Assembly (NCBI GenBank): GCA_041498975.1
Contig: JBGQJI010000044.1
Coordinates: forward strand, 1-16,857
Reading direction: 5' to 3'
DNA from: Candidatus Methylomirabilis sp.
GTDB lineage: Bacteria; Methylomirabilota; Methylomirabilia; Methylomirabilales; Methylomirabilaceae
DNA length: 16,857 nucleotides
The notes under the pieces were generated by a model. It worked only from the letters and a program-made list of their open reading frames with translations, was not told the DNA's origin and did no database searches. Below are positions 3,064-13,959 of the stretch, piece after piece. Positions within the stretch are counted from its first letter, which is position 1; every line of letters starts with the position of its first letter. Position numbers and translations under genes: made by a program.

Positions 3064-4032
3064 ATGGAATATCGTAGGCTGGGGCGGACAGGGGTAAAGG
3101 TCTCGGAGATCGGCTTCGGGGGATGGGGGATCGGCAAAGGCTGGTGGGGCGAGACCGATGACGACCTCTCTGTCCGGTCCCTGGTTCGGGCGCTGGAGTT
3201 GGGTGTCACCTTCATCGACACCGCGTACGCCTACGGGAATGGGCATAGCGAGCGACTGATCGCGAGGGCGTTCAGGAAGGCCGGGCGGCGAGTGTTTGTC
3301 GCCACCAAGGTTCCGTTGAAAAGCGCAGAATGGCCGCCCGAGCCGGGGGTCACGGCGCGCCAGGCATTTCCCGCCGACTGGATCATCAAGCACGCTGAGC
3401 GGAGCCTCGGCAATCTCGAAACGCAGTGCCTGGACCTGCAGCAGCTCCACATCTGGCGCGACGAATGGGTTGACGAGCCGGAGTGGCAAGAGGCGGTCCA
3501 GAAGCTGAAACAGGAGGGGAAGGTCCGGTTCTTTGGCGTCTCGATCATCGACCACCAGCCTGAAACCGCGCTCAAACTCGTCCGCTCCGGGTTGGCCGAC
3601 ACAGTCCAGGTGATTTACAACATCTTCGACCAGTCACCTGCCGAAGTCCTGTTCCCCATCTGCCAGCAGCTCGACGTCGGTGTCATCGCTCGGGTCCCTT
3701 TTGACGAAGGGAGCTTGACGGGCCAGCTTACGCCGCAGACGACCTTCCCGCAGGGCTCGTTTCAAACCTTCTATTTTCGAGGAGAGCGGCTTCGCGAGAC
3801 CTGTGAACGTGTCGATCGACTCCGGCCGCTTCTGCGCAGTGGGGTCGCCACGCTGGCACAGCTCGCCCTCAGATTCTGCCTGAGCCACCCGGCGGTCTCG
3901 ACGGTCATCCCCGGGATGCGGCGGCCCGCCAATGTGGAGGAGAACTGCGCCGTCTCCGATGGGAAGCCGCTGGCAGAAGATCTGCGCAGCAGCGTGAAGG
4001 CACACGTCTGGGCCAGGAACTATTATCAGTGA
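3064..4032 (+). CDS. Aldo/keto reductase family oxidoreductase
   Basis: YRRLGRTGVKVSEIGFGGW, FIDTAYAYGNGHSE (catalytic D, Y), VATKV (K), DLQQLH (H), GKVRFFGVS, VIPGMR; GAGG upstream of start. Confidence 0.95.
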   Translation: MEYRRLGRTGVKVSEIGFGGWGIGKGWWGETDDDLSVRSLVRALELGVTFIDTAYAYGNGHSERLIARAFRKAGRRVFVATKVPLKSAEWPPEPGVTARQAFPADWIIKHAERSLGNLETQCLDLQQLHIWRDEWVDEPEWQEAVQKLKQEGKVRFFGVSIIDHQPETALKLVRSGLADTVQVIYNIFDQSPAEVLFPICQQLDVGVIARVPFDEGSLTGQLTPQTTFPQGSFQTFYFRGERLRETCERVDRLRPLLRSGVATLAQLALRFCLSHPAVSTVIPGMRRPANVEENCAVSDGKPLAEDLRSSVKAHVWARNYYQ

Positions 4033-4079
4033 GACGCCACCAATTCCGGCAATCCACCTTGGGGACTTCGAAAAAATAC

Positions 4080-4109
4080 TTGACAGAGCGGCCGATGGTT
4101 GTGTATAGA
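4080..4109 (+). promoter_or_regulatory. Putative sigma70 promoter of the rrf2-sulfate operon
   Basis: TTGACA at 4080-4085 preceded by an A-tract; TATAGA at 4104-4109 (18-nt spacer). Confidence 0.55.
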
Positions 4110-4112
4110 CGA

Positions 4113-4143
4113 TCCAGTCCATAGATTGATTGGACAATAGGAA
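4113..4143 (+). promoter_or_regulatory. Candidate Rrf2 operator upstream of rrf2
   Basis: Inverted repeat GTCCA-N9-TGGAC (4117-4135) and TAGA-N11-ATAGGAA (4122-4143); the latter recurs upstream of sbp at 4623-4644. Confidence 0.45.
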
Positions 4144-4146
4144 CCG

Positions 4147-4608
4147 ATGCTTTCCAAAAAGGCAAAATACGGATTACAGGCATTATTGCTGCTCGCAAAG
4201 GAGTATGGTCACGGGCCACTCCTTATCTCGGAAATGGCCGAGAGGGAGAGAATCCCGAAGAAATTCCTGGAGCTGATCCTGCTCGAGCTGAAGAATAAAG
4301 GTGTTCTTCAAAGCAAGAAAGGCAGGGGTGGCGGATACCTCCTGGGCAAATCGCCCGAAGCGATCACCATGGGCCACATAATACGAGCCTTGGACGGACC
4401 GCTTGCCCCGATTCCGTGCGTGAGTCAGACCGCCTATGTGAAGTGCGAAGAGTGTAAGGATGAAACGACATGCGGGATAAGGATCGTGATGAAAGAGGTC
4501 CGCGATGCGACAGCAAAGATCCTCGATGGCACGACTCTGGCGGAGATCCTTGAGCGGGTAGAGAGGGCCGCCAGATTGGGACGGGAGTCCTCTGTGTACT
4601 CAATCTAG
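4147..4608 (+). CDS. Rrf2-family transcriptional regulator (4-Cys, CymR/IscR-like)
   Basis: KYGLQALLLLA, HTH IPKKFLELIL, wing SKKGRGGGYLL, IIRALDGPL; C91-X8-C100-X2-C103-X5-C109; sits directly upstream of sulfate transport genes. Confidence 0.95.
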   Translation: MLSKKAKYGLQALLLLAKEYGHGPLLISEMAERERIPKKFLELILLELKNKGVLQSKKGRGGGYLLGKSPEAITMGHIIRALDGPLAPIPCVSQTAYVKCEECKDETTCGIRIVMKEVRDATAKILDGTTLAEILERVERAARLGRESSVYSI

Positions 4609-4622
4609 TTTTTTTGCTCGAT

Positions 4623-4644
4623 TAGACGATTAATATTATAGGAA
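4623..4644 (+). promoter_or_regulatory. Candidate Rrf2 operator upstream of sbp
   Basis: TAGACGATTAATATTATAGGAA: AT-rich, same TAGA-N11-ATAGGAA spacing as 4122-4143. Confidence 0.45.
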
Positions 4645-4715
4645 TAATGGACTGTTTAGCGGACGCACTCATCGATTTAGTTGTCCGATATCTGGCTTCC
4701 CCGTGAAAGAGAGAG

Positions 4716-5735
4716 ATGCTCACCAAAAATACCATCCGCTCACTCTCAGCACTGATTGTGGCCTTCGGGCTTATGCTGCCCGCCTTGGTTCAGGCGGACA
4801 TCACATTGCTCAACGTCTCTTACGACCCGACGCGCGAGCTCTATCAGGACGTTAATGCGGCCTTCGCAAAGCACCGGCAGGCGAAGGCCGGCGAGAAGGT
4901 TACGATCAGGCAATCCCATGGGGGATCGAGCAAGCAGGCAAGGGCCGTCATCGACGGCCTGGAGGCCGATGTGGTGACGCTGGCGCTGGCCTACGATATC
5001 GACGCGATTGTCGAGAAAGCCCAGTTGCTCCCCAAGAACTGGCAGGCGCGTCTGCCGCACAACAGTTCGCCCTACACGTCAACGATTGTCTTCCTCGTGC
5101 GCAAGGGCAACCCCAAGAAGATCAAGGATTGGGACGACCTGGTCAGGTCGGGCGTCTCGGTAATCACTCCCAACCCGAAGACGTCCGGCGGCGCCCGCTG
5201 GAACTATCTGGCCGCGTGGGGCTATGCCCTCAAGAAAAGCGGCGGTGACGAGACCAAGGCCAGGGAGTTCGTGACACGCCTCTACAAGAACGTGCCCGTT
5301 CTGGATTCTGGGGCCCGCGGCTCCACCACGACTTTTGTGCAGCGAGGGATCGGTGACGTGCTTATCTCGTGGGAGAACGAGGCGCTGCTCGCCCTCAGCG
5401 AACTGGGCAAGGACAAGTTCGAGGTCGTCGCGCCCTCGGTGAGCATCTTGGCCGAGCCACCGGTGAGCGTCATCGACAAGGTGGTGGATAAGCACGGCAC
5501 GCGGGCCGTCGCCCAGGCGTACCTGGAGTACCTGTACTCCGCGGAGGGCCAGGAGATCGCGGCAAAGCACTACTACCGTCCACGGTTGGCATCGGTGGCC
5601 GCACGGTACGCGAAGCAGCTCCCGAAGGTGAAGCTCTTTACGATCGACGAGATCTCCGGGGGCTGGCAGAAGGCCCAGAAGACCCATTTTGAAGACGGCG
5701 GGCTCTATGACCAGATCTACCAACCAGGCCGATGA
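4716..5735 (+). CDS. sbp: Sulfate ABC transporter substrate-binding protein
   Basis: Signal peptide ending [58 protein letters not shown] motifs of Sbp/CysP. Confidence 0.97.
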
Positions 5736-5823
5736 CGAGCATCAGTAGAGGAGACATGGCGGGGGCGGTCAACGGAGTCCTGGTCGCCATCGCCAGCCCG
5801 ACACCAGCATAAGGAGTCAGCCG

Positions 5824-6654
5824 TTGGCCACATCCCTTGCGCGTCGGCGCGTCCTGCCCGGCTTCGGTATGACCTTGGGCTTCACCTTGCTCTACCTCAG
5901 CCTGATCGTGCTGATACCGCTCTCCGGGATCTTCCTGAAGACGGCCACGATGAGTTGGGCTCAGTTCTGGTCGACGGTCACCGAACCGCGCGCGGTCGCC
6001 TCGTATCGGCTCAGCTTTGGCGCATCGTTGATCGGCGCCTTGATCAATGTCGTGTTCGGGCTCCTGGCCGCGTGGGTCCTGGTGCGGTATAGCTTCCCTG
6101 GCAAGCGCATCATGGACGCGCTAGTGGACCTCCCCTTTGCCATGCCGACCGCCGTGGCGGGGATCACCCTCACCGCCATCTTCGCCGGCAATGGCTGGAT
6201 CGGCCGGCATCTCGAACCCCTGGGCGTGAAAGTCGCCTTCACCCCCCTGGGCGTGGCTGTCGCGCTCACCTTCATCGGACTGCCCTTCGTGGTGAGGACG
6301 GTGCAGCCTGTGCTGCAGGACCTCGACGCGGAGATCGAGGAGGCCGCCGCCAGCCTTGGAGCCACCCGCTGGCAGACCTTTACCCGAGTCATCTTGCCCG
6401 ACCTGTTGCCGGCGCTGATGACCGGTTTTACCCTGGCCTTCGCCCGGGCGCTGGGCGAGTACGGTTCCGTGGTGTTTATCTCGGGGAATATGCCGATGCG
6501 AACGGAGATCACGACGCTGTTGATTATCACCAAGCTGGAGCAGTACGACTACACTGGCGCGACGGCGATCGCGGTCGTCATGCTCATCGCGTCATTTGTG
6601 CTGCTCCTGCTCATCAACTTGTTGCAGTGGTGGACCCACAAGCGCTATGCATAA
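5824..6654 (+). CDS. cysT: Sulfate ABC transporter permease CysT (CysU)
   Basis: TTG start after TAAGGAG; VLPGFG, DLPFAMPTAVAG, EAA loop EEAAASLGA, FARALGEYGSV. Confidence 0.96.
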   Translation: MATSLARRRVLPGFGMTLGFTLLYLSLIVLIPLSGIFLKTATMSWAQFWSTVTEPRAVASYRLSFGASLIGALINVVFGLLAAWVLVRYSFPGKRIMDALVDLPFAMPTAVAGITLTAIFAGNGWIGRHLEPLGVKVAFTPLGVAVALTFIGLPFVVRTVQPVLQDLDAEIEEAAASLGATRWQTFTRVILPDLLPALMTGFTLAFARALGEYGSVVFISGNMPMRTEITTLLIITKLEQYDYTGATAIAVVMLIASFVLLLLINLLQWWTHKRYA

Positions 6655-6754
6655 GGTTGCCCTCGTCGTGGACACAAGCGGCGGGCGATGCGACGGGAGC
6701 GCGAGATAGCGTGAGCGCTGACGGACCGATGAAGCCAAGCAAGGGAGAAGGCGG

Positions 6755-7660
6755 ATGGCCAGAGCCATCGTCGTAGGGCGTGCGGCAGCATCCATGGCTC
6801 GAACCCGCGCCACAACGGAGCCGGCGTTCGTGCGCTGGAGCTTGATCTCAATGGCGTTGGTCTTCCTCGGGCTGTTCCTGGTTCTGCCGCTGGTCGCGGT
6901 CTTCGTTCAGGCCCTTGAGAAGGGCGTGGCGGCGTACATTGAAGCGCTTCGCGAACCGAACGCGCTGGCTGCCATCCGCCTTACGCTGTTGACTGCGGCC
7001 ATCGCCGTCCCCCTGAATCTGACGTTTGGCGTAGCTGCGGCATGGGCGATCGCCAAGTTTGAGTTTGTCGGCAGGAACCTGCTGATTACGCTGATCGATC
7101 TGCCCTTCGCCGTATCGCCGGTGATCTCCGGGCTGGTCTATGTGCTGCTGTTTGGCCTACAGGGCTGGCTCGGGCCCTGGCTGGCGGCGCACGACATCAA
7201 GATCATCTTTGCCGTGCCAGGCATCGTCCTCGCGACCATCTTTGTGACGTTTCCTTTCGTCGCCCGGGAGCTGATTCCCCTCATGCAAGCCCAGGGCACC
7301 GAGGAGGAGCAGGCCGCCCTGGTGCTTGGCGCCAATGGGCGCCAGACCTTCTTTCGCGTCACCCTGCCGAATATCAAATGGGGCCTCTTGTACGGCGTGA
7401 TTCTCTTGAATGCGCGAGCGATGGGCGAGTTCGGCGCCGTCTCGGTGGTGTCGGGCCACGTGCGAGGACTGACGAACACCATGCCGCTGCACGTGGAGAT
7501 TCTGTACAATGAATACAACTTCGCCGCCGCCTTCGCCGTTGCCTCCTTGCTGGCTATGCTGGCGTTGGTCACGCTGGCCGCAAAGAGTCTTGTCGAATGG
7601 AAAGCGCAGCAACGGATCGCGGCCGCCGAACAGCGTGTCGATCGAGGAGCTGTGCGATGA
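6755..7660 (+). CDS. cysW: Sulfate ABC transporter permease CysW
   Basis: [47 protein letters not shown]. Start could be 6755 (GGGAGAAGG upstream) or 6794. Confidence 0.96.
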
Positions 7661-8724
7661 GCATCGAGGTTCGTCATATCACGAAGACCTTCGGCGGTTT
7701 CAGCGCCCTTAAGGACGTCAGTCTCGAGGTGCCGATGGGCGAACTGATCGCCCTGCTCGGGCCCTCCGGCTCGGGCAAAACGACTCTGCTGCGGATCATC
7801 GCGGGCCTGGAAGTCCCTGACAGCGGCGCGGTCCTGTTTGACCGCGAGGACGCCACCGACATCAGCGCGCGTGACCGACGAGTGGGCTTCGTGTTCCAAC
7901 ACTACGCGTTGTTCCGACATATGACTGTCTTCGAGAATGTCGCCTTCGGGCTAAGGGTCAGACCTCGCAGGCTCCGGCCATCACAGGCCGCGATCCGCGA
8001 GAAGGTCTCGGAGCTGCTCAAGCTCGTTCAACTGGACTGGCTGGCGGATCGCTACCCGTCCCAACTCTCCGGTGGCCAGCGCCAACGCGTCGCCCTGGCC
8101 AGAACCCTGGCGGTCGAGCCCAAGATGCTGCTGTTGGATGAGCCGTTTGGCTCGCTGGACGCCAAGGTTCGGAAAGAACTGCGGCGATGGCTCCGTCGGC
8201 TCCATGACGACCTTCACATCACCAGCGTCTTCGTCACGCACGACCAGGAAGAAGCGTTAGAGGTGGCAGACCGCGTGGTGGTGATGAACGAAGGCCGGGT
8301 CGAGCAGATCGGAACGCCCGATGAGGTCTACCACCGCCCCGCCAATTCCTTTGTATACAACTTTCTCGGCAACGTGAACCTCTTTCACGCGCGGGTTGAG
8401 GGCGGGAAAGCCTATATCGGCGACATGGCGATGGAGCTTCCTGAGCAAGCCGAACCGGACGCCACATCCGCCCTTGTGTACGTTCGCCCGCACCTGCTGG
8501 ACATCGACCACCAGCCGGATGGCAGCAATCACTTCCGCGCCAGGGTGGAGCATATCAATCCTGCAGGACCACTGGTCAAGGTGGAGCTGGAGACTGAATG
8601 GGGAGATCCCGTGCACGTGGAGATCTCCCAGGATCGCTACCGGGCCCTCCATCTGAAGAAGGGCGCAGAAGTGTTCATCACACCGAAGGAAAAGAAGCTC
8701 TTCGTTGACAATTACTCGATCTAG
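7657..8724 (+). CDS. cysA: Sulfate ABC transporter ATP-binding protein CysA with C-terminal TOBE-like domain
   Basis: Start corrected to 7657 (ATGA overlap with cysW stop, GAGGAG at 7644-7649); Walker A GPSGSGKT, signature LSGGQ, Walker B LLLDE, H-loop VTHD. Confidence 0.97.
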
Positions 8725-8867: not shown

Positions 8868-9176
8868 ATGAGTGACCAGCCAAAATCGACCGTTGAGTTG
8901 ATCTGCCCTTGCTGTCAAGCGCGGCTGACCGTTGACCCCGAACTTGGAGCGGTCCTACATCACGAGCTGCCGCCCAAGGTGGCGTCGATCACCGATCTGC
9001 AAGCCGCCGTCGAGGAGCTGAAGGGCGAGGCGGGCAAGCGGGAGGCTCGGTTCAAAGAGTCGATGGAGGCCGAGAAGGACAAGGCCAAACTCCTGGAGCG
9101 GAAATTCAAGGACCTCCTCAAAAAGGCAAAGGACGAACCGATCACCCGCCCCACCCGCGAAATCGATTTGGACTGA
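8868..9176 (+). CDS. Hypothetical protein (102 aa): N-terminal CPCC knuckle and charged coiled-coil C-terminus
   Basis: Fills an intergenic gap on the operon strand; ICPCCQARL then a Lys/Glu-rich helix; protein-like composition. Confidence 0.85.
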   Translation: MSDQPKSTVELICPCCQARLTVDPELGAVLHHELPPKVASITDLQAAVEELKGEAGKREARFKESMEAEKDKAKLLERKFKDLLKKAKDEPITRPTREIDLD

Positions 9177-12428: not shown

Positions 12429-12716
12429 TCATGACCTTTCGTCTCGACGAAGGAGCCGAAGCGTCTCTTCGTAGATTGTGCGGCGAGGCCCCACCGCCAC
12501 GAGATCTACTGCCCCCGAAGCGACTCGATAGACAATCCGAAGCCGCCCGACGCCAACGCTCCGCAACCCGAGAAGTTTATCTCTCAGGGCTTTGCCCACG
12601 TCGGGTTTGACGACCACCGACTCCAGCGCGGCTCTGACCTTCTTCTTGAGCGTGGGATGCATATGCTGGATGAGGGTACGGACGTCTTCAGGAATGAGGA
12701 GCCTGCGAGGTGTCAC
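12429..12716 (-). CDS. Type II TA toxin, RelE/ParE family
   Basis: 95 aa, basic; GKALRDKLLGLRS.GVGRLRIVY, VAVGPRRTIY; immediately downstream of the antitoxin. Confidence 0.88.
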   Translation of the reverse strand: MTPRRLLIPEDVRTLIQHMHPTLKKKVRAALESVVVKPDVGKALRDKLLGLRSVGVGRLRIVYRVASGAVDLVAVGPRRTIYEETLRLLRRDERS

Positions 12717-12734
12717 CTGTGTGCTCTGGTACTG

Positions 12735-13001
12735 TCACTGGTCATCCCCGAATAGCTCCTCCAGTGTGTAAAGCCGCTTTGTTCGCGCGAGGGAGCGTAG
12801 TCCACGCCGAATCTCTTTCATCATCTCAGCGCTTGACTGGATCACAATGGTCTCATGCCAACTGTCGAACTCTTCCGGGCTGATCAAAACTGCCGCCGGC
12901 CTCCCGTTTCGGGTGATTGTAATTTGTTCATCCTTCGAAATGATTTCCTCGATGAGCTGGCTCAGCTTCGTCTTGACTTCCGACAGAGGGAGCATCTTCA
13001 T
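12735..13001 (-). CDS. Type II TA antitoxin, Phd/YefM family
   Basis: LSEVKTKLSQLI, ITITRNGRPAAVLISPEEF, C-terminal TLEELF; AGGAGG RBS (CCTCCT at 13011-13016). Confidence 0.95.
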   Translation of the reverse strand: MKMLPLSEVKTKLSQLIEEIISKDEQITITRNGRPAAVLISPEEFDSWHETIVIQSSAEMMKEIRRGLRSLARTKRLYTLEELFGDDQ

Positions 13002-13086: not shown

Positions 13087-13959
13087 TCATCCGGTCTCCG
13101 CTGGGTTCTGCGGATCATGCTCCCACTCGTACCAGGAGCCAGCGAAGTTGGCGGCGGCAGGATGGCCGATCAGCTTGAGTGCGAGGAGGCCGAGCGCGGC
13201 TGAAACACCGGCGTTGCAGTAGGTAATGGCGCGTTTATCGAGAGTGACGCCGGTTGCCTCGAAGGTGTGCCGCAGATCGGCCTCCGAGTTGAACGTTTTA
13301 TACTCTCCGCTGACGAGAGTGGCCGTGGGAACATTACACGCGCCCGGGATCCGCCCCTTCCGGTTGCCCCGTCCGATCTCGCCATGAAATTCAGGTGGGG
13401 AGCGAAGGTCTACCAGCACAACGGCTGGGTCACCGATGGCGGCTCGCACCTCAGGACTGCCCGCCCGCAACTCCGGTTGAATTCTGGGTGTAAGGGCCGC
13501 AGGCTGGTGATGCGGGATTTCCGCTGTCACCGGGTGCCCCTCCGCGATCCACTTTCGAAAGCCGCCGTTGAGGACCTTGACCGCGGGATGGCCGTAGTAA
13601 TTCAAGGCCCACCACAAGCGCGCCGCGATCTGCCCGGCGCCGCCTTCGTAGACGACAACGGTGTGCTCATCGCCGATCCCCAGCCGGCCCATGAGCGCGG
13701 CGAACCGCCTTGGGCTGGCTAGCGTCATCTTCACCGGCGCCCCCGGCTCCGTGATGTCTGCCGCCCAATCCACGAACACCGCCCCTGGGATGTGGGCCTC
13801 GAGGTAGGCGTTCCGATTGCCAAAGTAATGGGGGTGTGGCGCATCCGGAGGCTTGATAATCCCCCTGATGTCCACAATCCGAATCGACGGATCCGAGAGG
13901 TGGTCGGCCAGCCAGTCGGTCTCGGCCAACAGGCGTGCCCGTCGGGTGATTGACTCCAT
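13087..13959 (-). CDS. Two-domain sulfurtransferase (rhodanese / 3-mercaptopyruvate sulfurtransferase family)
   Basis: YLEAHIPGAV, AARLWWAL, VKVLNGG, LVDLRSPPEF, GRIPGA, active site YCNAGVSA, FAGSWYEW; AAGGAG RBS. Confidence 0.95.
   Translation of the reverse strand: MESITRRARLLAETDWLADHLSDPSIRIVDIRGIIKPPDAPHPHYFGNRNAYLEAHIPGAVFVDWAADITEPGAPVKMTLASPRRFAALMGRLGIGDEHTVVVYEGGAGQIAARLWWALNYYGHPAVKVLNGGFRKWIAEGHPVTAEIPHHQPAALTPRIQPELRAGSPEVRAAIGDPAVVLVDLRSPPEFHGEIGRGNRKGRIPGACNVPTATLVSGEYKTFNSEADLRHTFEATGVTLDKRAITYCNAGVSAALGLLALKLIGHPAAANFAGSWYEWEHDPQNPAETG

What the first reader, a model, noticed from the sequence alone, without database searches (positions are those of the whole stretch)
4147..8724. 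Regulator and sulfate-transport ATPase both end in -YSI: possible CysK-docking circuit controlling transcription and uptake
Seen: the Rrf2 protein ends ...ESSVYSI* (TAC TCA ATC TAG, to 4608) and CysA ends ...FVDNYSI* (TAC TCG ATC TAG, to 8724). Two unrelated folds in one operon share the last three residues, and no other called protein in the window ends in Ile. Established: cysteine synthase CysK binds partners through a C-terminal Ile peptide inserted in its active site (serine acetyltransferase CysE, Bacillus/Staphylococcus CymR, CdiA-CT of E. coli 536), and O-acetylserine displaces them. Inference: CysK could dock on CysA to gate sulfate import post-translationally, or channel it to assimilation, while also acting as co-repressor for the Rrf2 protein. 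I do not know of this being described for a bacterial CysA. cysK itself is not in the window.
Basis: partly seen in the sequence, partly recalled or inferred. Interest (0 to 1): 0.8.

Follow-up and report, generated by a model that had tools for sequence, protein, structure and literature searches.

The report
CysK-docking tails on CysA and Rrf2
The ATPase of a sulfate pump and the gene regulator beside it both end in a conserved tyrosine-x-isoleucine tail of the kind that plugs into the cysteine-making enzyme CysK, so one enzyme may sense sulfur supply and control both sulfate import and its genes.

Summary
The Rrf2 regulator (4147-4608) ends VYSI and CysA (7657-8724) ends DNYSI.

Neither tail is chance:
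- All 43 close CysA relatives end Y-[S/A]-I, while the residue before varies.
- 85 of 120 Rrf2 relatives end [F/Y]-x-I.
- A crude gene call of the genome gives four Y-x-I ends among 2455 proteins. They are two CysA copies, this Rrf2, and a second Rrf2 directly upstream of cysK.

It occurs in 22 of 77 diverse CysA and in 24 of 37 from two further phyla, typically as [E/D]-D-[Y/F/W]-x-I. This resembles the published CysK-plugging peptides DFSI, DDYII and YMFYI.

The tail tracks its proposed partners:
- With an isoleucine tail on the neighbouring Rrf2: 35 loci gave 18 both, 16 neither, 1 discordant.
- With cysK nearby: 15 of 17 loci with cysK carry the tail, against 9 of 20 without.

CysE of this genus lacks the isoleucine anchor.

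Best reading: CysK is an O-acetylserine-sensing hub that docks on two Rrf2 repressors and on CysA. No binding was shown. My searches found no paper on a CysA tail. Earlier notes of this scan reported the same idea on other genomes.

The parts
4106..4124 (+). Operator-like box TAGACGAT-N7-ATAG, 23 bp upstream of the Rrf2 start
   Evidence: It is one of only two matches to this pattern in the window; shuffles gave 0. The pattern was derived after the fact from these same sequences.
4147..4608 (+). Rrf2-family regulator, 153 aa, with four invariant Cys (C91, C100, C103, C109) and a C-terminal tail ...VYSI
   Evidence: Pfam Rrf2 E 2e-35. NCBIfam CymR model scores 84 bits, below its cut-off of 195. 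The nearest solved structures include CymR 2Y75 and 3T8R. The four Cys are invariant in 120 of 120 relatives.
4597..4605 (+). Codons for the Rrf2 tail Y-S-I (TAC TCA ATC), followed by TAG
   Evidence: 85 of 120 relatives end [FY]-x-I.
4623..4641 (+). Second operator-like box TAGACGAT-N7-ATAG, between Rrf2 and the sulfate-binding protein gene
   Evidence: A similar box lies just after the Rrf2 stop in G046, G068, L191, L196 and L198.
4716..5735 (+). Sulfate ABC transporter substrate-binding protein
   Evidence: NF008022 552 bits, TIGR00971 510 bits.
5824..6654 (+). cysT permease
   Evidence: TIGR02139 432 bits, cut-off 246.
6755..7660 (+). cysW permease
   Evidence: TIGR02140 409 bits, cut-off 329.
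7657..8724 (+). cysA, the sulfate ABC transporter ATPase (355 aa from ATG 7657), made of the ATPase (nucleotide-binding) domain, the CysA_C_terminal and TOBE_3 regulatory domain, and the tail ...DNYSI
   Evidence: TIGR00968 396 bits, cut-off 343; Pfam PF00005, PF17850, PF12857. The start is set by homologues.
8713..8721 (+). Codons for the CysA tail Y-S-I (TAC TCG ATC), followed by TAG
   Evidence: In the AlphaFold2 model the last strand ends at residue 349 and residues 352-355 have pLDDT below 50.

Best explanation
The window holds a sulfate-import operon (Rrf2 regulator, binding protein, CysT, CysW, CysA). Its first and last products each carry a short, flexible C-terminal peptide, aromatic-x-Ile-COOH. 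This is the kind of peptide that inserts into the active site of cysteine synthase CysK.

Proposed mechanism:
1. When O-acetylserine (OAS) is low, meaning sulfur is sufficient, the CysK active site is free and binds these tails.
2. On the Rrf2 proteins, CysK acts as a co-repressor, as in the CymR-CysK complex. One Rrf2 is in this operon and a second is encoded next to cysK.
3. On the CysA dimer, the CysK dimer docks on the two tails that leave the C-terminal regulatory domains and changes ATPase and transport activity. By analogy with plants the change is most likely a decrease.
4. When OAS rises under sulfur limitation, it competes for the same pocket. It then releases the repressors, the transporter and CysK itself together.

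What is shown: the tails, their conservation, their co-variation, their linkage to cysK, and a CysK whose aligned pocket residues match peptide-binding CysKs.

What is inferred: that CysK is the partner of CysA, and the direction of the effect.

In this genus CysE has no Ile anchor, so the classical CysE-CysK complex is probably not formed and the pocket is left to these partners.
For: (1) Conservation under selection. All 43 CysA in the close clade (72% identity or more) have Y at -3 and I at -1, with S (38) or A (5) at -2. Position -4 takes 7 different residues. Codons vary synonymously: TAC/TAT, TCG/TCC, ATC/ATA.

(2) Rrf2 tail. 85 of 120 relatives end [FY]-x-I, including MYFI and MYYI. The S. 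aureus CymR tail YMFYI binds CysK at 25 nM in the active site.

(3) Second Rrf2. In 30 loci of the order, 29 end [ST]-Y-x-I and 28 lie directly beside cysK. The one tail-less copy has no cysK beside it.

(4) Breadth. 22 of 77 diverse CysA end aromatic-x-I, mostly [ED]-D-[YFW]-x-I. So do 24 of 37 in a second sample from Planctomycetota and Verrucomicrobiota. The state changes at least 14 times on a tree of 121 CysA.

(5) Controls. 0 of 24 paralogous TOBE-type ABC ATPases in the phylum end in Ile. Among the 33 ABC ATPase-like frames found in the own genome, only the 2 CysA copies end aromatic-x-I; two others end in Ile without it.

(6) Likeness to known ligands. The native M. tuberculosis CysE tail is DFSI, crystallised in CysK1 (2Q3C). 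MNYDI binds Salmonella CysK at 0.22 uM against 11.8 uM for the native YGDGI. EWSI and DWSI were the best dockers (PMC9547175).

(7) Co-variation. In 35 loci that hold both an Rrf2 and a CysA, 18 have both tails, 16 have neither, 1 has only the Rrf2 tail and 0 have only the CysA tail.

(8) Linkage. All 4 first-sample loci with a same-strand cysK beside or upstream of cysA in the transporter cluster have the tail. In the second sample 15 of 17 loci with cysK within 6 kb have it, against 9 of 20 without (Fisher 0.014).

(9) The partner exists. The own cysK scores 435 bits against a cut-off of 351. Its best solved matches after 2EGU are S. aureus CysK and M. tuberculosis CysK1, and the aligned TSGNT loop, QQF and Met are identical.

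(10) The tail is free. In the AlphaFold2 model (mean pLDDT 88) residues 352-355 are below 50, after the last strand at 347-349.

(11) CysE of the genus ends ...RQND or ...PRNE in 5 of 5 complete copies.
Against: - No binding, competition or activity datum exists for any CysA tail.
- The tail is dispensable for transport. E. coli CysA ends ...LALAQSA. 55 of 77 and 13 of 37 sampled CysA lack it, and only 1 of 14 in Acidobacteriota has it.
- Two cysK-linked cysA genes lack the tail (L277, L303). Nine tailed cysA genes have no cysK within 6 kb.
- The co-variation counts include relatives. The test on phylogenetically independent pairs found only 2 pairs on well-supported branches (both concordant, p 0.5), so it has no power. 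The naive Fisher values overstate the case.
- Three same-contig pairings (P0005, P0016, P0040) rest on matching contig lengths, not on DNA that I saw.
- The genome-wide count rests on my own crude gene caller.
- In most other tail-bearing genomes CysE also ends in Ile, so CysA would have to compete with CysE there.
- Three Rrf2 counted as tailed end EGI and one ends AGI, without an aromatic residue.
Confidence: 0.55

Rival explanations
1. The tails are real docking peptides but for another common partner. Candidates are the second PLP enzyme of the genome (the CysM-like paralogue on C87), a tail-recognising protease or unfoldase (a C-terminal degron that couples turnover of regulator and transporter), or an unknown protein.
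For: The genome has a second CysK-like enzyme at C87:7502-8437 (302 bits, below the cysK cut-off). Conservation and co-variation show a shared constraint but do not name the partner. Nine of 20 loci without cysK nearby still carry the tail.
Against: The tails match published CysK ligands closely: DFSI, DDYII, YMFYI, MNYDI. The tailed second Rrf2 is beside the true cysK in 28 of 30 loci. Tailed cysA genes are enriched next to cysK. CysM-type enzymes bind such peptides far more weakly according to the review: MNLNI about 3000 uM and YGDGI 4922 uM for Salmonella CysM. From recall, known ClpX C-terminal tags are of the LAA or basic-AI kind, not acidic-aromatic-x-I.
Confidence: 0.15
2. The CysA tail works within the transporter itself, for example by packing against the regulatory domain of the other CysA subunit or taking part in trans-inhibition. 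On this reading its likeness to the Rrf2 tail is convergence without a shared partner.
For: It follows directly on the last strand of the TOBE-like regulatory domain. From general knowledge, C-terminal regulatory domains of related importers mediate trans-inhibition.
Against: AlphaFold2 leaves residues 352-355 unstructured with pLDDT below 50. The linker length between the last strand and the motif varies while the motif is kept. The tail is gained or lost together with the tail of an unrelated DNA-binding protein in 34 of 35 loci. It is enriched where cysK is adjacent.
Confidence: 0.1
3. The shared ending is chance or a neutral feature inherited in a few lineages.
For: Many CysA do without it.
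Against: Y and I are invariant in 43 of 43 despite synonymous changes and variable neighbours. The state changes at least 14 times on the CysA tree, yet the same motif recurs in eight or more phyla. None of 24 paralogues end in Ile. Only 4 of 2455 proteins in the genome end Y-x-I, and all are CysA or Rrf2.
Confidence: 0.03

Closest known systems
CymR-CysK regulatory complex (Bacillus subtilis, Staphylococcus aureus)
   Same: An Rrf2-family repressor of sulfur genes ends in aromatic-aromatic/x-Ile. The CymR tail YMFYI inserts in the CysK active site with KD 25 nM. Relatives of the window's Rrf2 end MYFI, MYYI, FHI, YSI. A paralogue is encoded next to cysK.
   Different: It is not a CymR equivalog: 84 bits against a cut-off of 195. 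It has four invariant Cys where the aligned B. subtilis CymR has none, so it may also hold a metal or Fe-S centre. It occurs in NC10-like and other Gram-negative phyla. There are two such regulators per genome.
Cysteine synthase complex (CysE C-terminal tail in the CysK active site)
   Same: The chemistry is the same: a free C-terminal Ile carboxylate plus a hydrophobic or aromatic residue at -3. CysE tails include DFSI (M. tuberculosis), DDYII (S. aureus) and MNLNI (H. influenzae). OAS displaces the tail (PMC13040420, passages).
   Different: The carrier is an ABC-transporter ATPase, not the preceding enzyme of the pathway. In the window's genus CysE itself has lost the Ile anchor.
Plant SULTR1;2 STAS domain with cytosolic cysteine synthase (OASTL)
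   Same: Cysteine synthase binds the cytoplasmic regulatory domain of a sulfate transporter. The binding lowers transport and raises synthase activity (Shibagaki and Grossman 2010, as reported in PMC4158793, passage). This is the only known case of cysteine synthase gating sulfate uptake.
   Different: The transporter family is unrelated (an SLC26 H+ symporter against an ABC importer), as is the domain (STAS against TOBE-like). I saw no evidence that the plant contact uses a C-terminal Ile peptide.
CdiA-CT (E. coli 536) toxin activated by CysK
   Same: An unrelated protein has borrowed the CysE-type C-terminal Ile tail to dock in CysK (PMC5562914 and PMC4961446, abstracts in listings).
   Different: There a toxin hijacks CysK of a target cell. 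Here the partners are the cell's own proteins of the same pathway.

Membership tests
CysK-docking partners (C-terminal Ile tail type: CysE, CymR, CdiA-CT) | The protein ends in Ile with a free carboxylate, preceded by a hydrophobic or aromatic residue at -3 | tested here: met
   CysA ends ...DNYSI* and Rrf2 ends ...SVYSI*. Compare the ligands DFSI, DDYII, YMFYI, MNYDI.
CysK-docking partners (C-terminal Ile tail type: CysE, CymR, CdiA-CT) | The tail is conserved among orthologues while the flanking residues drift | tested here: met
   CysA 43 of 43; Rrf2 85 of 120; second Rrf2 29 of 30.
CysK-docking partners (C-terminal Ile tail type: CysE, CymR, CdiA-CT) | The tail is flexible and exposed | tested here: met
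   In the AlphaFold2 model of CysA, residues 352-355 have pLDDT below 50 after the last strand at 347-349. This is a prediction only. The Rrf2 was not modelled.
CysK-docking partners (C-terminal Ile tail type: CysE, CymR, CdiA-CT) | An A-type CysK with the peptide pocket is present in the same genome | tested here: met
   TIGR01139 435 bits against a cut-off of 351. The TSGNT loop, QQF and Met are identical to S. aureus CysK in the alignment.
CysK-docking partners (C-terminal Ile tail type: CysE, CymR, CdiA-CT) | Physical, Ile-dependent binding to CysK that OAS competes with | not testable with these tools
   This needs peptide titration, SPR or a pull-down.
CymR (NCBIfam NF047409 equivalog) | Score over the curated cut-off | tested here: not met
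   84.3 bits against 195. The protein is a member of the Rrf2 superfamily (TIGR00738 113.5 against 73.3) but not of the CymR equivalog. It also misses the IscR, NsrR and RirA cut-offs.
CysA, sulfate ABC transporter ATPase | Family score, CysA-type C-terminal domain, and an operon with sbp, cysT and cysW | tested here: met
   TIGR00968 396 against 343; PF17850 and PF12857 present; neighbours are over their cut-offs. The E. coli-type equivalog NF008105 is not reached (449 against 502).

The most novel reading that the evidence does not exclude
In many bacterial phyla CysK is a general sensor of O-acetylserine. Through one pocket and one peptide code ([E/D]-D-aromatic-x-Ile-COOH) it controls transcription through Rrf2 repressors, enzyme flux through CysE, and sulfate import itself by clamping the two tails of the CysA dimer. 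That would be the first post-translational switch described for a bacterial sulfate ABC importer. In the window's genus the CysE arm has been dropped and the transporter and repressor arms kept.
Probability: 0.45. Interest if true: 0.8.

Novelty: new variant of a known kind. Interest (0 to 1): 0.72.

Why it matters
Regulation of bacterial sulfate ABC importers is described at the level of transcription. My searches of the held library found no protein-level switch.

- If CysK docks on CysA, uptake, gene expression and cysteine synthesis would all answer to one metabolite through one pocket.
- It would be a bacterial counterpart of the plant SULTR1;2-cysteine synthase contact.
- It would add a housekeeping transporter to the short list of CysK moonlighting partners.
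- It gives a simple sequence rule for annotating genomes and predicting where this control exists: a C-terminal acidic-aromatic-x-Ile on CysA, Rrf2 or CysE.
- It bears on CysK inhibitors being developed as antibiotic adjuvants, since a compound that fills the pocket would also release these partners.
- It can be tested directly with a peptide and a purified enzyme.

Tried and rejected
- Complex prediction. CysK (alignment of 72 rows) was run with the CysA C-terminal domain, residues 238-355 (alignment of 55 rows). The result was no verdict: best score 0.26, mark 0.32, controls not run. It counts neither for nor against binding.
- The search for related loci with CysA in genome contigs. I hoped for close relatives. 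I used them as a diverse background sample instead.
- Phylum-wide search for CysA orthologues. True orthologues appeared in only 5 genomes of the genus, so the phylum gave little.
- Independent-pairs tests of co-variation were underpowered: 1 and then 2 pairs on supported branches.
- E. coli as a model carrier is ruled out, because its CysA has no tail.
- The Campanini 2015 review (PMC4506874) is not held. What I say of it is recalled.
- The promoter and terminator scan of 3950-4800 found nothing.
- I considered and rejected the idea that C230 is an independent paralogue. It has the same downstream genes as the window, so it is more likely a second strain in the bin.
- Supplements of the papers were not opened.


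Full report
**1. The observation**

The window encodes, on the + strand:
- an Rrf2-family regulator (4147-4608);
- a sulfate-binding protein (4716-5735);
- CysT (5824-6654);
- CysW (6755-7660);
- CysA (ORF from 7597; homologues start at MSIEVR, so ATG 7657 is the likely start; stop at 8724).

The Rrf2 ends TAC TCA ATC TAG, which reads ...VYSI*. CysA ends TAC TCG ATC TAG, which reads ...DNYSI*.

**2. Is it chance?**

I laid the assembly (241 contigs, 2.68 Mb, 85% complete) and called genes with a simple codon-usage model. The results were:
- 2455 proteins in all;
- 60 end in Ile;
- 8 end aromatic-x-Ile;
- 4 end Y-x-I.

The four Y-x-I proteins are:
- CysA of the window;
- a CysA copy on the short contig C230, 82% identical with the same downstream genes, so probably a second strain in the bin;
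- the window's Rrf2;
- a second Rrf2 on C87 that ends TYQI and lies directly upstream of cysK.

The gene caller is crude, but the result does not depend on start codons.

**3. Conservation of the CysA tail among close relatives**

I searched 5.8 billion proteins and read the ends of the 120 best CysA hits.
- 43 form the close clade: P0001-39, 41, 42, 73, 103, at 72% identity or more. Named ones are NC10 / Methylomirabilaceae.
- All 43 have Y at -3 and I at -1.
- Position -2 is S (38) or A (5).
- Position -4 takes seven different residues.
- The 43 hold 25 distinct last-16 strings.
- Of the other 77 hits, at about 73-79% identity from other phyla, one ends in Ile and none ends aromatic-x-I.

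DNA of six copies shows synonymous changes inside the tail: TAC/TAT, TCG/TCC, ATC/ATA.

**4. The Rrf2 tail**

Of the 120 best Rrf2 hits (68% identity or more, several phyla), 87 end in Ile and 85 end [FY]-x-I: YSI, FAI, YFI, FHI, YAI, YYI.

A preprint reports the following (10.1101/2024.09.19.614015; I read passages):
- The S. aureus CymR C-terminal decapeptide EDLDGYMFYI and the CysE decapeptide NGEIQDDYII both occupy the CysK active site in crystals.
- The CymR peptide binds at 25 nM.
- The last five residues suffice for this binding.

The window's Rrf2 is therefore CymR-like in its tail. It is not a CymR equivalog, scoring 84 bits against a cut-off of 195. It also has four Cys that are invariant in 120 of 120 relatives. 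The aligned B. subtilis CymR has none in that stretch.

**5. CysK, CysE and the second Rrf2 in the genome**

- cysK is present at C87:1823-2737, scoring 435 bits against a cut-off of 351.
- Its best solved matches after 2EGU are S. aureus CysK (8T2C, 8SRT-W) and M. tuberculosis CysK1 (2Q3B/C/D).
- In the printed alignments the TSGNT loop, the QQF motif and the Met before GA are identical to S. aureus CysK.
- The preprint names residues of these elements as contacts of the peptide carboxylate and of the hydrophobic channel.

Immediately upstream of cysK lies the second Rrf2. In 30 loci from 7 genera of the order:
- 29 copies end [ST]-Y-[QHR]-I;
- 28 are directly beside cysK;
- one locus is cut by a contig end;
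- the one tail-less copy has no cysK beside it.

CysE of the genome ends ...YRSPRND. Four further complete CysE of the genus end ...RQND or ...PRNE. The Ile that anchors the classical cysteine synthase complex is therefore missing in this genus.

**6. The CysA tail is widespread**

First sample. A scan of one genome per species returned 80 diverse CysA loci at 52-70% identity. Of these:
- 77 are complete;
- 30 end in Ile;
- 22 end aromatic-x-I, usually [E/D]-D-[Y/F/W]-x-I a few residues after the last strand.

Examples are EDYSI (Acidobacteriota), EDYVI (Sporomusa, Planctomycetota), EDFSI and DDYSI (Verrucomicrobiota), EDYTI and EDFSI (Leptospira), MDFVI (a Bacillus), PDYQI (Aeromonas), DWEI (Dickeya, Lonsdalea), CDYYI (a Campylobacter) and QDWVI (a Burkholderiaceae MAG).

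Tree. I built a FastTree of 121 CysA with the last 12 residues removed. The state changes at least 14 times on it.

Second sample. I drew CysA from 200 genomes each of Planctomycetota and Verrucomicrobiota, which gave 40 loci.
- Three were dropped: one runs off its contig, one is the same contig as L073, and one is a fragment.
- Of the remaining 37, 24 have the tail.

Where the tail is absent:
- In Acidobacteriota only 1 of 14 CysA has it.
- E. coli CysA ends ...LALAQSA.

Controls:
- 0 of 24 paralogous TOBE-type ATPases of the phylum end in Ile.
- Of 33 ABC ATPase-like frames in the own genome, 4 end in Ile. Two of these are the CysA copies, and the other two lack the aromatic residue.

**7. 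Likeness to known CysK ligands**

A review (PMC9547175; passages and its section on peptide inhibitors) gives the following:
- The native M. tuberculosis CysE tail is DFSI, crystallised in CysK1 (2Q3C).
- MNYDI binds Salmonella CysK at 0.22 uM, against 11.8 uM for the native YGDGI.
- EWSI and DWSI were the best docking tetrapeptides for Leishmania CysK.
- The last three residues set affinity.
- CysM binds such peptides in the millimolar range.

The CysA consensus D-[Y/F/W]-[S/A/V/T/Q]-I belongs to this class.

**8. Co-variation and linkage**

Rrf2 and CysA tails. Loci that hold both proteins were collected from four sources: the first sample, Acidobacteriota, 80 metagenome loci fetched with the Rrf2, and the second sample. 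Counts over the 35 loci:

| CysA tail | Rrf2 ends in Ile | Loci |
|---|---|---|
| yes | yes | 18 |
| no | no | 16 |
| no | yes | 1 (L080) |
| yes | no | 0 |

Caveats on this table:
- Three pairs (P0005, P0016, P0040) are inferred from equal contig lengths.
- Four of the tailed Rrf2 end AGI or EGI without an aromatic residue.
- The naive Fisher value (4e-9) overstates the case because relatives are counted.
- Each trait changes at least 9 times on the tree. Only 2 independent pairs lie on well-supported branches, both concordant, which is too few for a test.

cysK linkage.
- In the first sample, a same-strand cysK lies beside or upstream of cysA in the transporter cluster in 4 loci (L016, L023, L026, L073). 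All four have the tail. A fifth, partial cysK lies 6.6 kb away on the other strand, beside a tail-less CysA.
- In the second sample, 15 of 17 loci with cysK within 6 kb carry the tail, against 9 of 20 without (Fisher 0.014).
- The exceptions L277 and L303 lack the tail. In L303 the Rrf2 lacks it too.

Metagenome loci also show Rrf2(DWVI)-sbp-cysK operons (L214, L225).

**9. Structure**

An AlphaFold2 model of CysA was built from an alignment of 55 rows, with mean pLDDT 88. It ends its last strand at residues 347-349 and leaves 352-355 below pLDDT 50. This fits a free tail on the C-terminal regulatory domain.

**10. Anatomy of regulation**

The box TAGACGAT-N7-ATAG occurs twice in the window and nowhere else there:
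- 23 bp before the Rrf2 start (4106-4124);
- 15 bp after its stop, ahead of the binding-protein gene (4623-4641).

Similar boxes follow the Rrf2 stop in relatives. I derived the pattern from these same sequences, so its shuffle statistic is not an independent test. It suggests autoregulation and control of the transporter genes.

**11. Reading**

The best explanation is a CysK hub.
- When its pocket is not occupied by O-acetylserine, CysK binds the tails of two Rrf2 repressors and of CysA.
- O-acetylserine, which accumulates when sulfide is short, releases all of them.

The Rrf2 arm is a new member of the CymR kind, with a probable extra metal or Fe-S site. I put it at about 0.8. The CysA arm is the new part, and I put it at about 0.55.

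The direction of the effect on CysA is inferred only. I favour inhibition of import when sulfur is sufficient. This rests on analogy with the plant SULTR1;2-cysteine synthase contact, which lowers transport (PMC4158793, passage).

The rivals are listed with their odds: another common partner or a degron; an intramolecular role; chance.

**12. Novelty**

Six full-text searches combined CysA, CysK, cysteine synthase, tails, sulfate transporter and binding partners. None found a paper that links a bacterial CysA to CysK. The 2022 review of the pathway does not contain the word CysA. Subscription journals are mostly not held, so this is not proof of absence.

Earlier notes of this scan (e1-7755370, e1-5142920, e1-5283204) report the same idea on other genomes. 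They are unchecked AI notes and I did not use them as evidence.

**13. Verdict**

It is a new variant of a known kind, namely a new class of carrier for the CysK-docking tail. It can be tested directly with a peptide titration.

Noticed in passing
G000 contig C87:1241-3905 (locus L001): The second Rrf2 (ends TYQI) and cysK are followed by a fused ThiS-ThiF protein (382 aa; Pfam ThiS and ThiF). About 5 kb on lie a TusA-like small protein and a second PLP enzyme (311 aa). From recall, this recalls the CysO/MoeZ/CysM protein-thiocarboxylate route to cysteine of M. tuberculosis.
   Followed up: partly
G000 contig C213:2-652 and loci L156-L159: CysE of this genus ends ...RQND or ...PRNE instead of Ile (5 of 5 complete copies). 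The classical CysE-CysK complex is therefore probably not formed here.
   Followed up: partly
G000 contig C230:2-2183: This short contig repeats the end of the window's locus (cysA, small ORF, nitroreductase) at 82% protein identity. The bin seems to hold two strains or species, although contamination is rated 0.4%.
   Followed up: partly
window 8868-9176 (+): A 102-aa ORF directly after cysA has a CPCC motif and a Lys/Glu-rich tail, with no Pfam or NCBIfam match. A similar ORF follows cysA on C230.
   Followed up: no
window 4147-4608: Four Cys of the Rrf2 (C91, C100, C103, C109) are invariant in 120 of 120 relatives, whether or not they carry the tail. The regulator may hold a metal or Fe-S centre besides the CysK tail.
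   Followed up: partly
window 12429-13001 (-): A ParE-type toxin and Phd/YefM-type antitoxin pair.
   Followed up: no
window 13087-13959 (-): A two-domain rhodanese (sulfurtransferase) lies 4 kb from the sulfate operon. It ends ...PAETG, so it has no Ile tail.
   Followed up: no
loci L022 and L025 (Variovorax): These CysA end ...EDWVSP, which looks like a CysK-type tail (EDWV-) that has been extended past the Ile position. It may be a decayed tail.
   Followed up: no
loci L214, L225, L233, L241 (metagenome): Rrf2 relatives that end DWVI or NWEI sit in Rrf2-sbp-cysK operons or directly beside cysK. This is another operon form of the same pairing.
   Followed up: partly
loci L151-L154 against L023, L026, L028: In three tail-bearing genomes a short CysE isoform ends in a tail like that of CysA in the same genome: IDFTI with EDYTI, PFWVI with EDYVI, VDFQI with EDFSI. 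This hints that the tails track the same pocket, but it is anecdotal.
   Followed up: no
genus g1: With this query, the sulfate ABC operon was found in only 5 of 18 genomes of the genus (counting the window's own). It was missing from six genomes that are 99-100% complete. All 11 genomes of the genus searched (the window's own included) keep the Rrf2-cysK pair. The operon looks like accessory, possibly transferred, DNA.
   Followed up: partly
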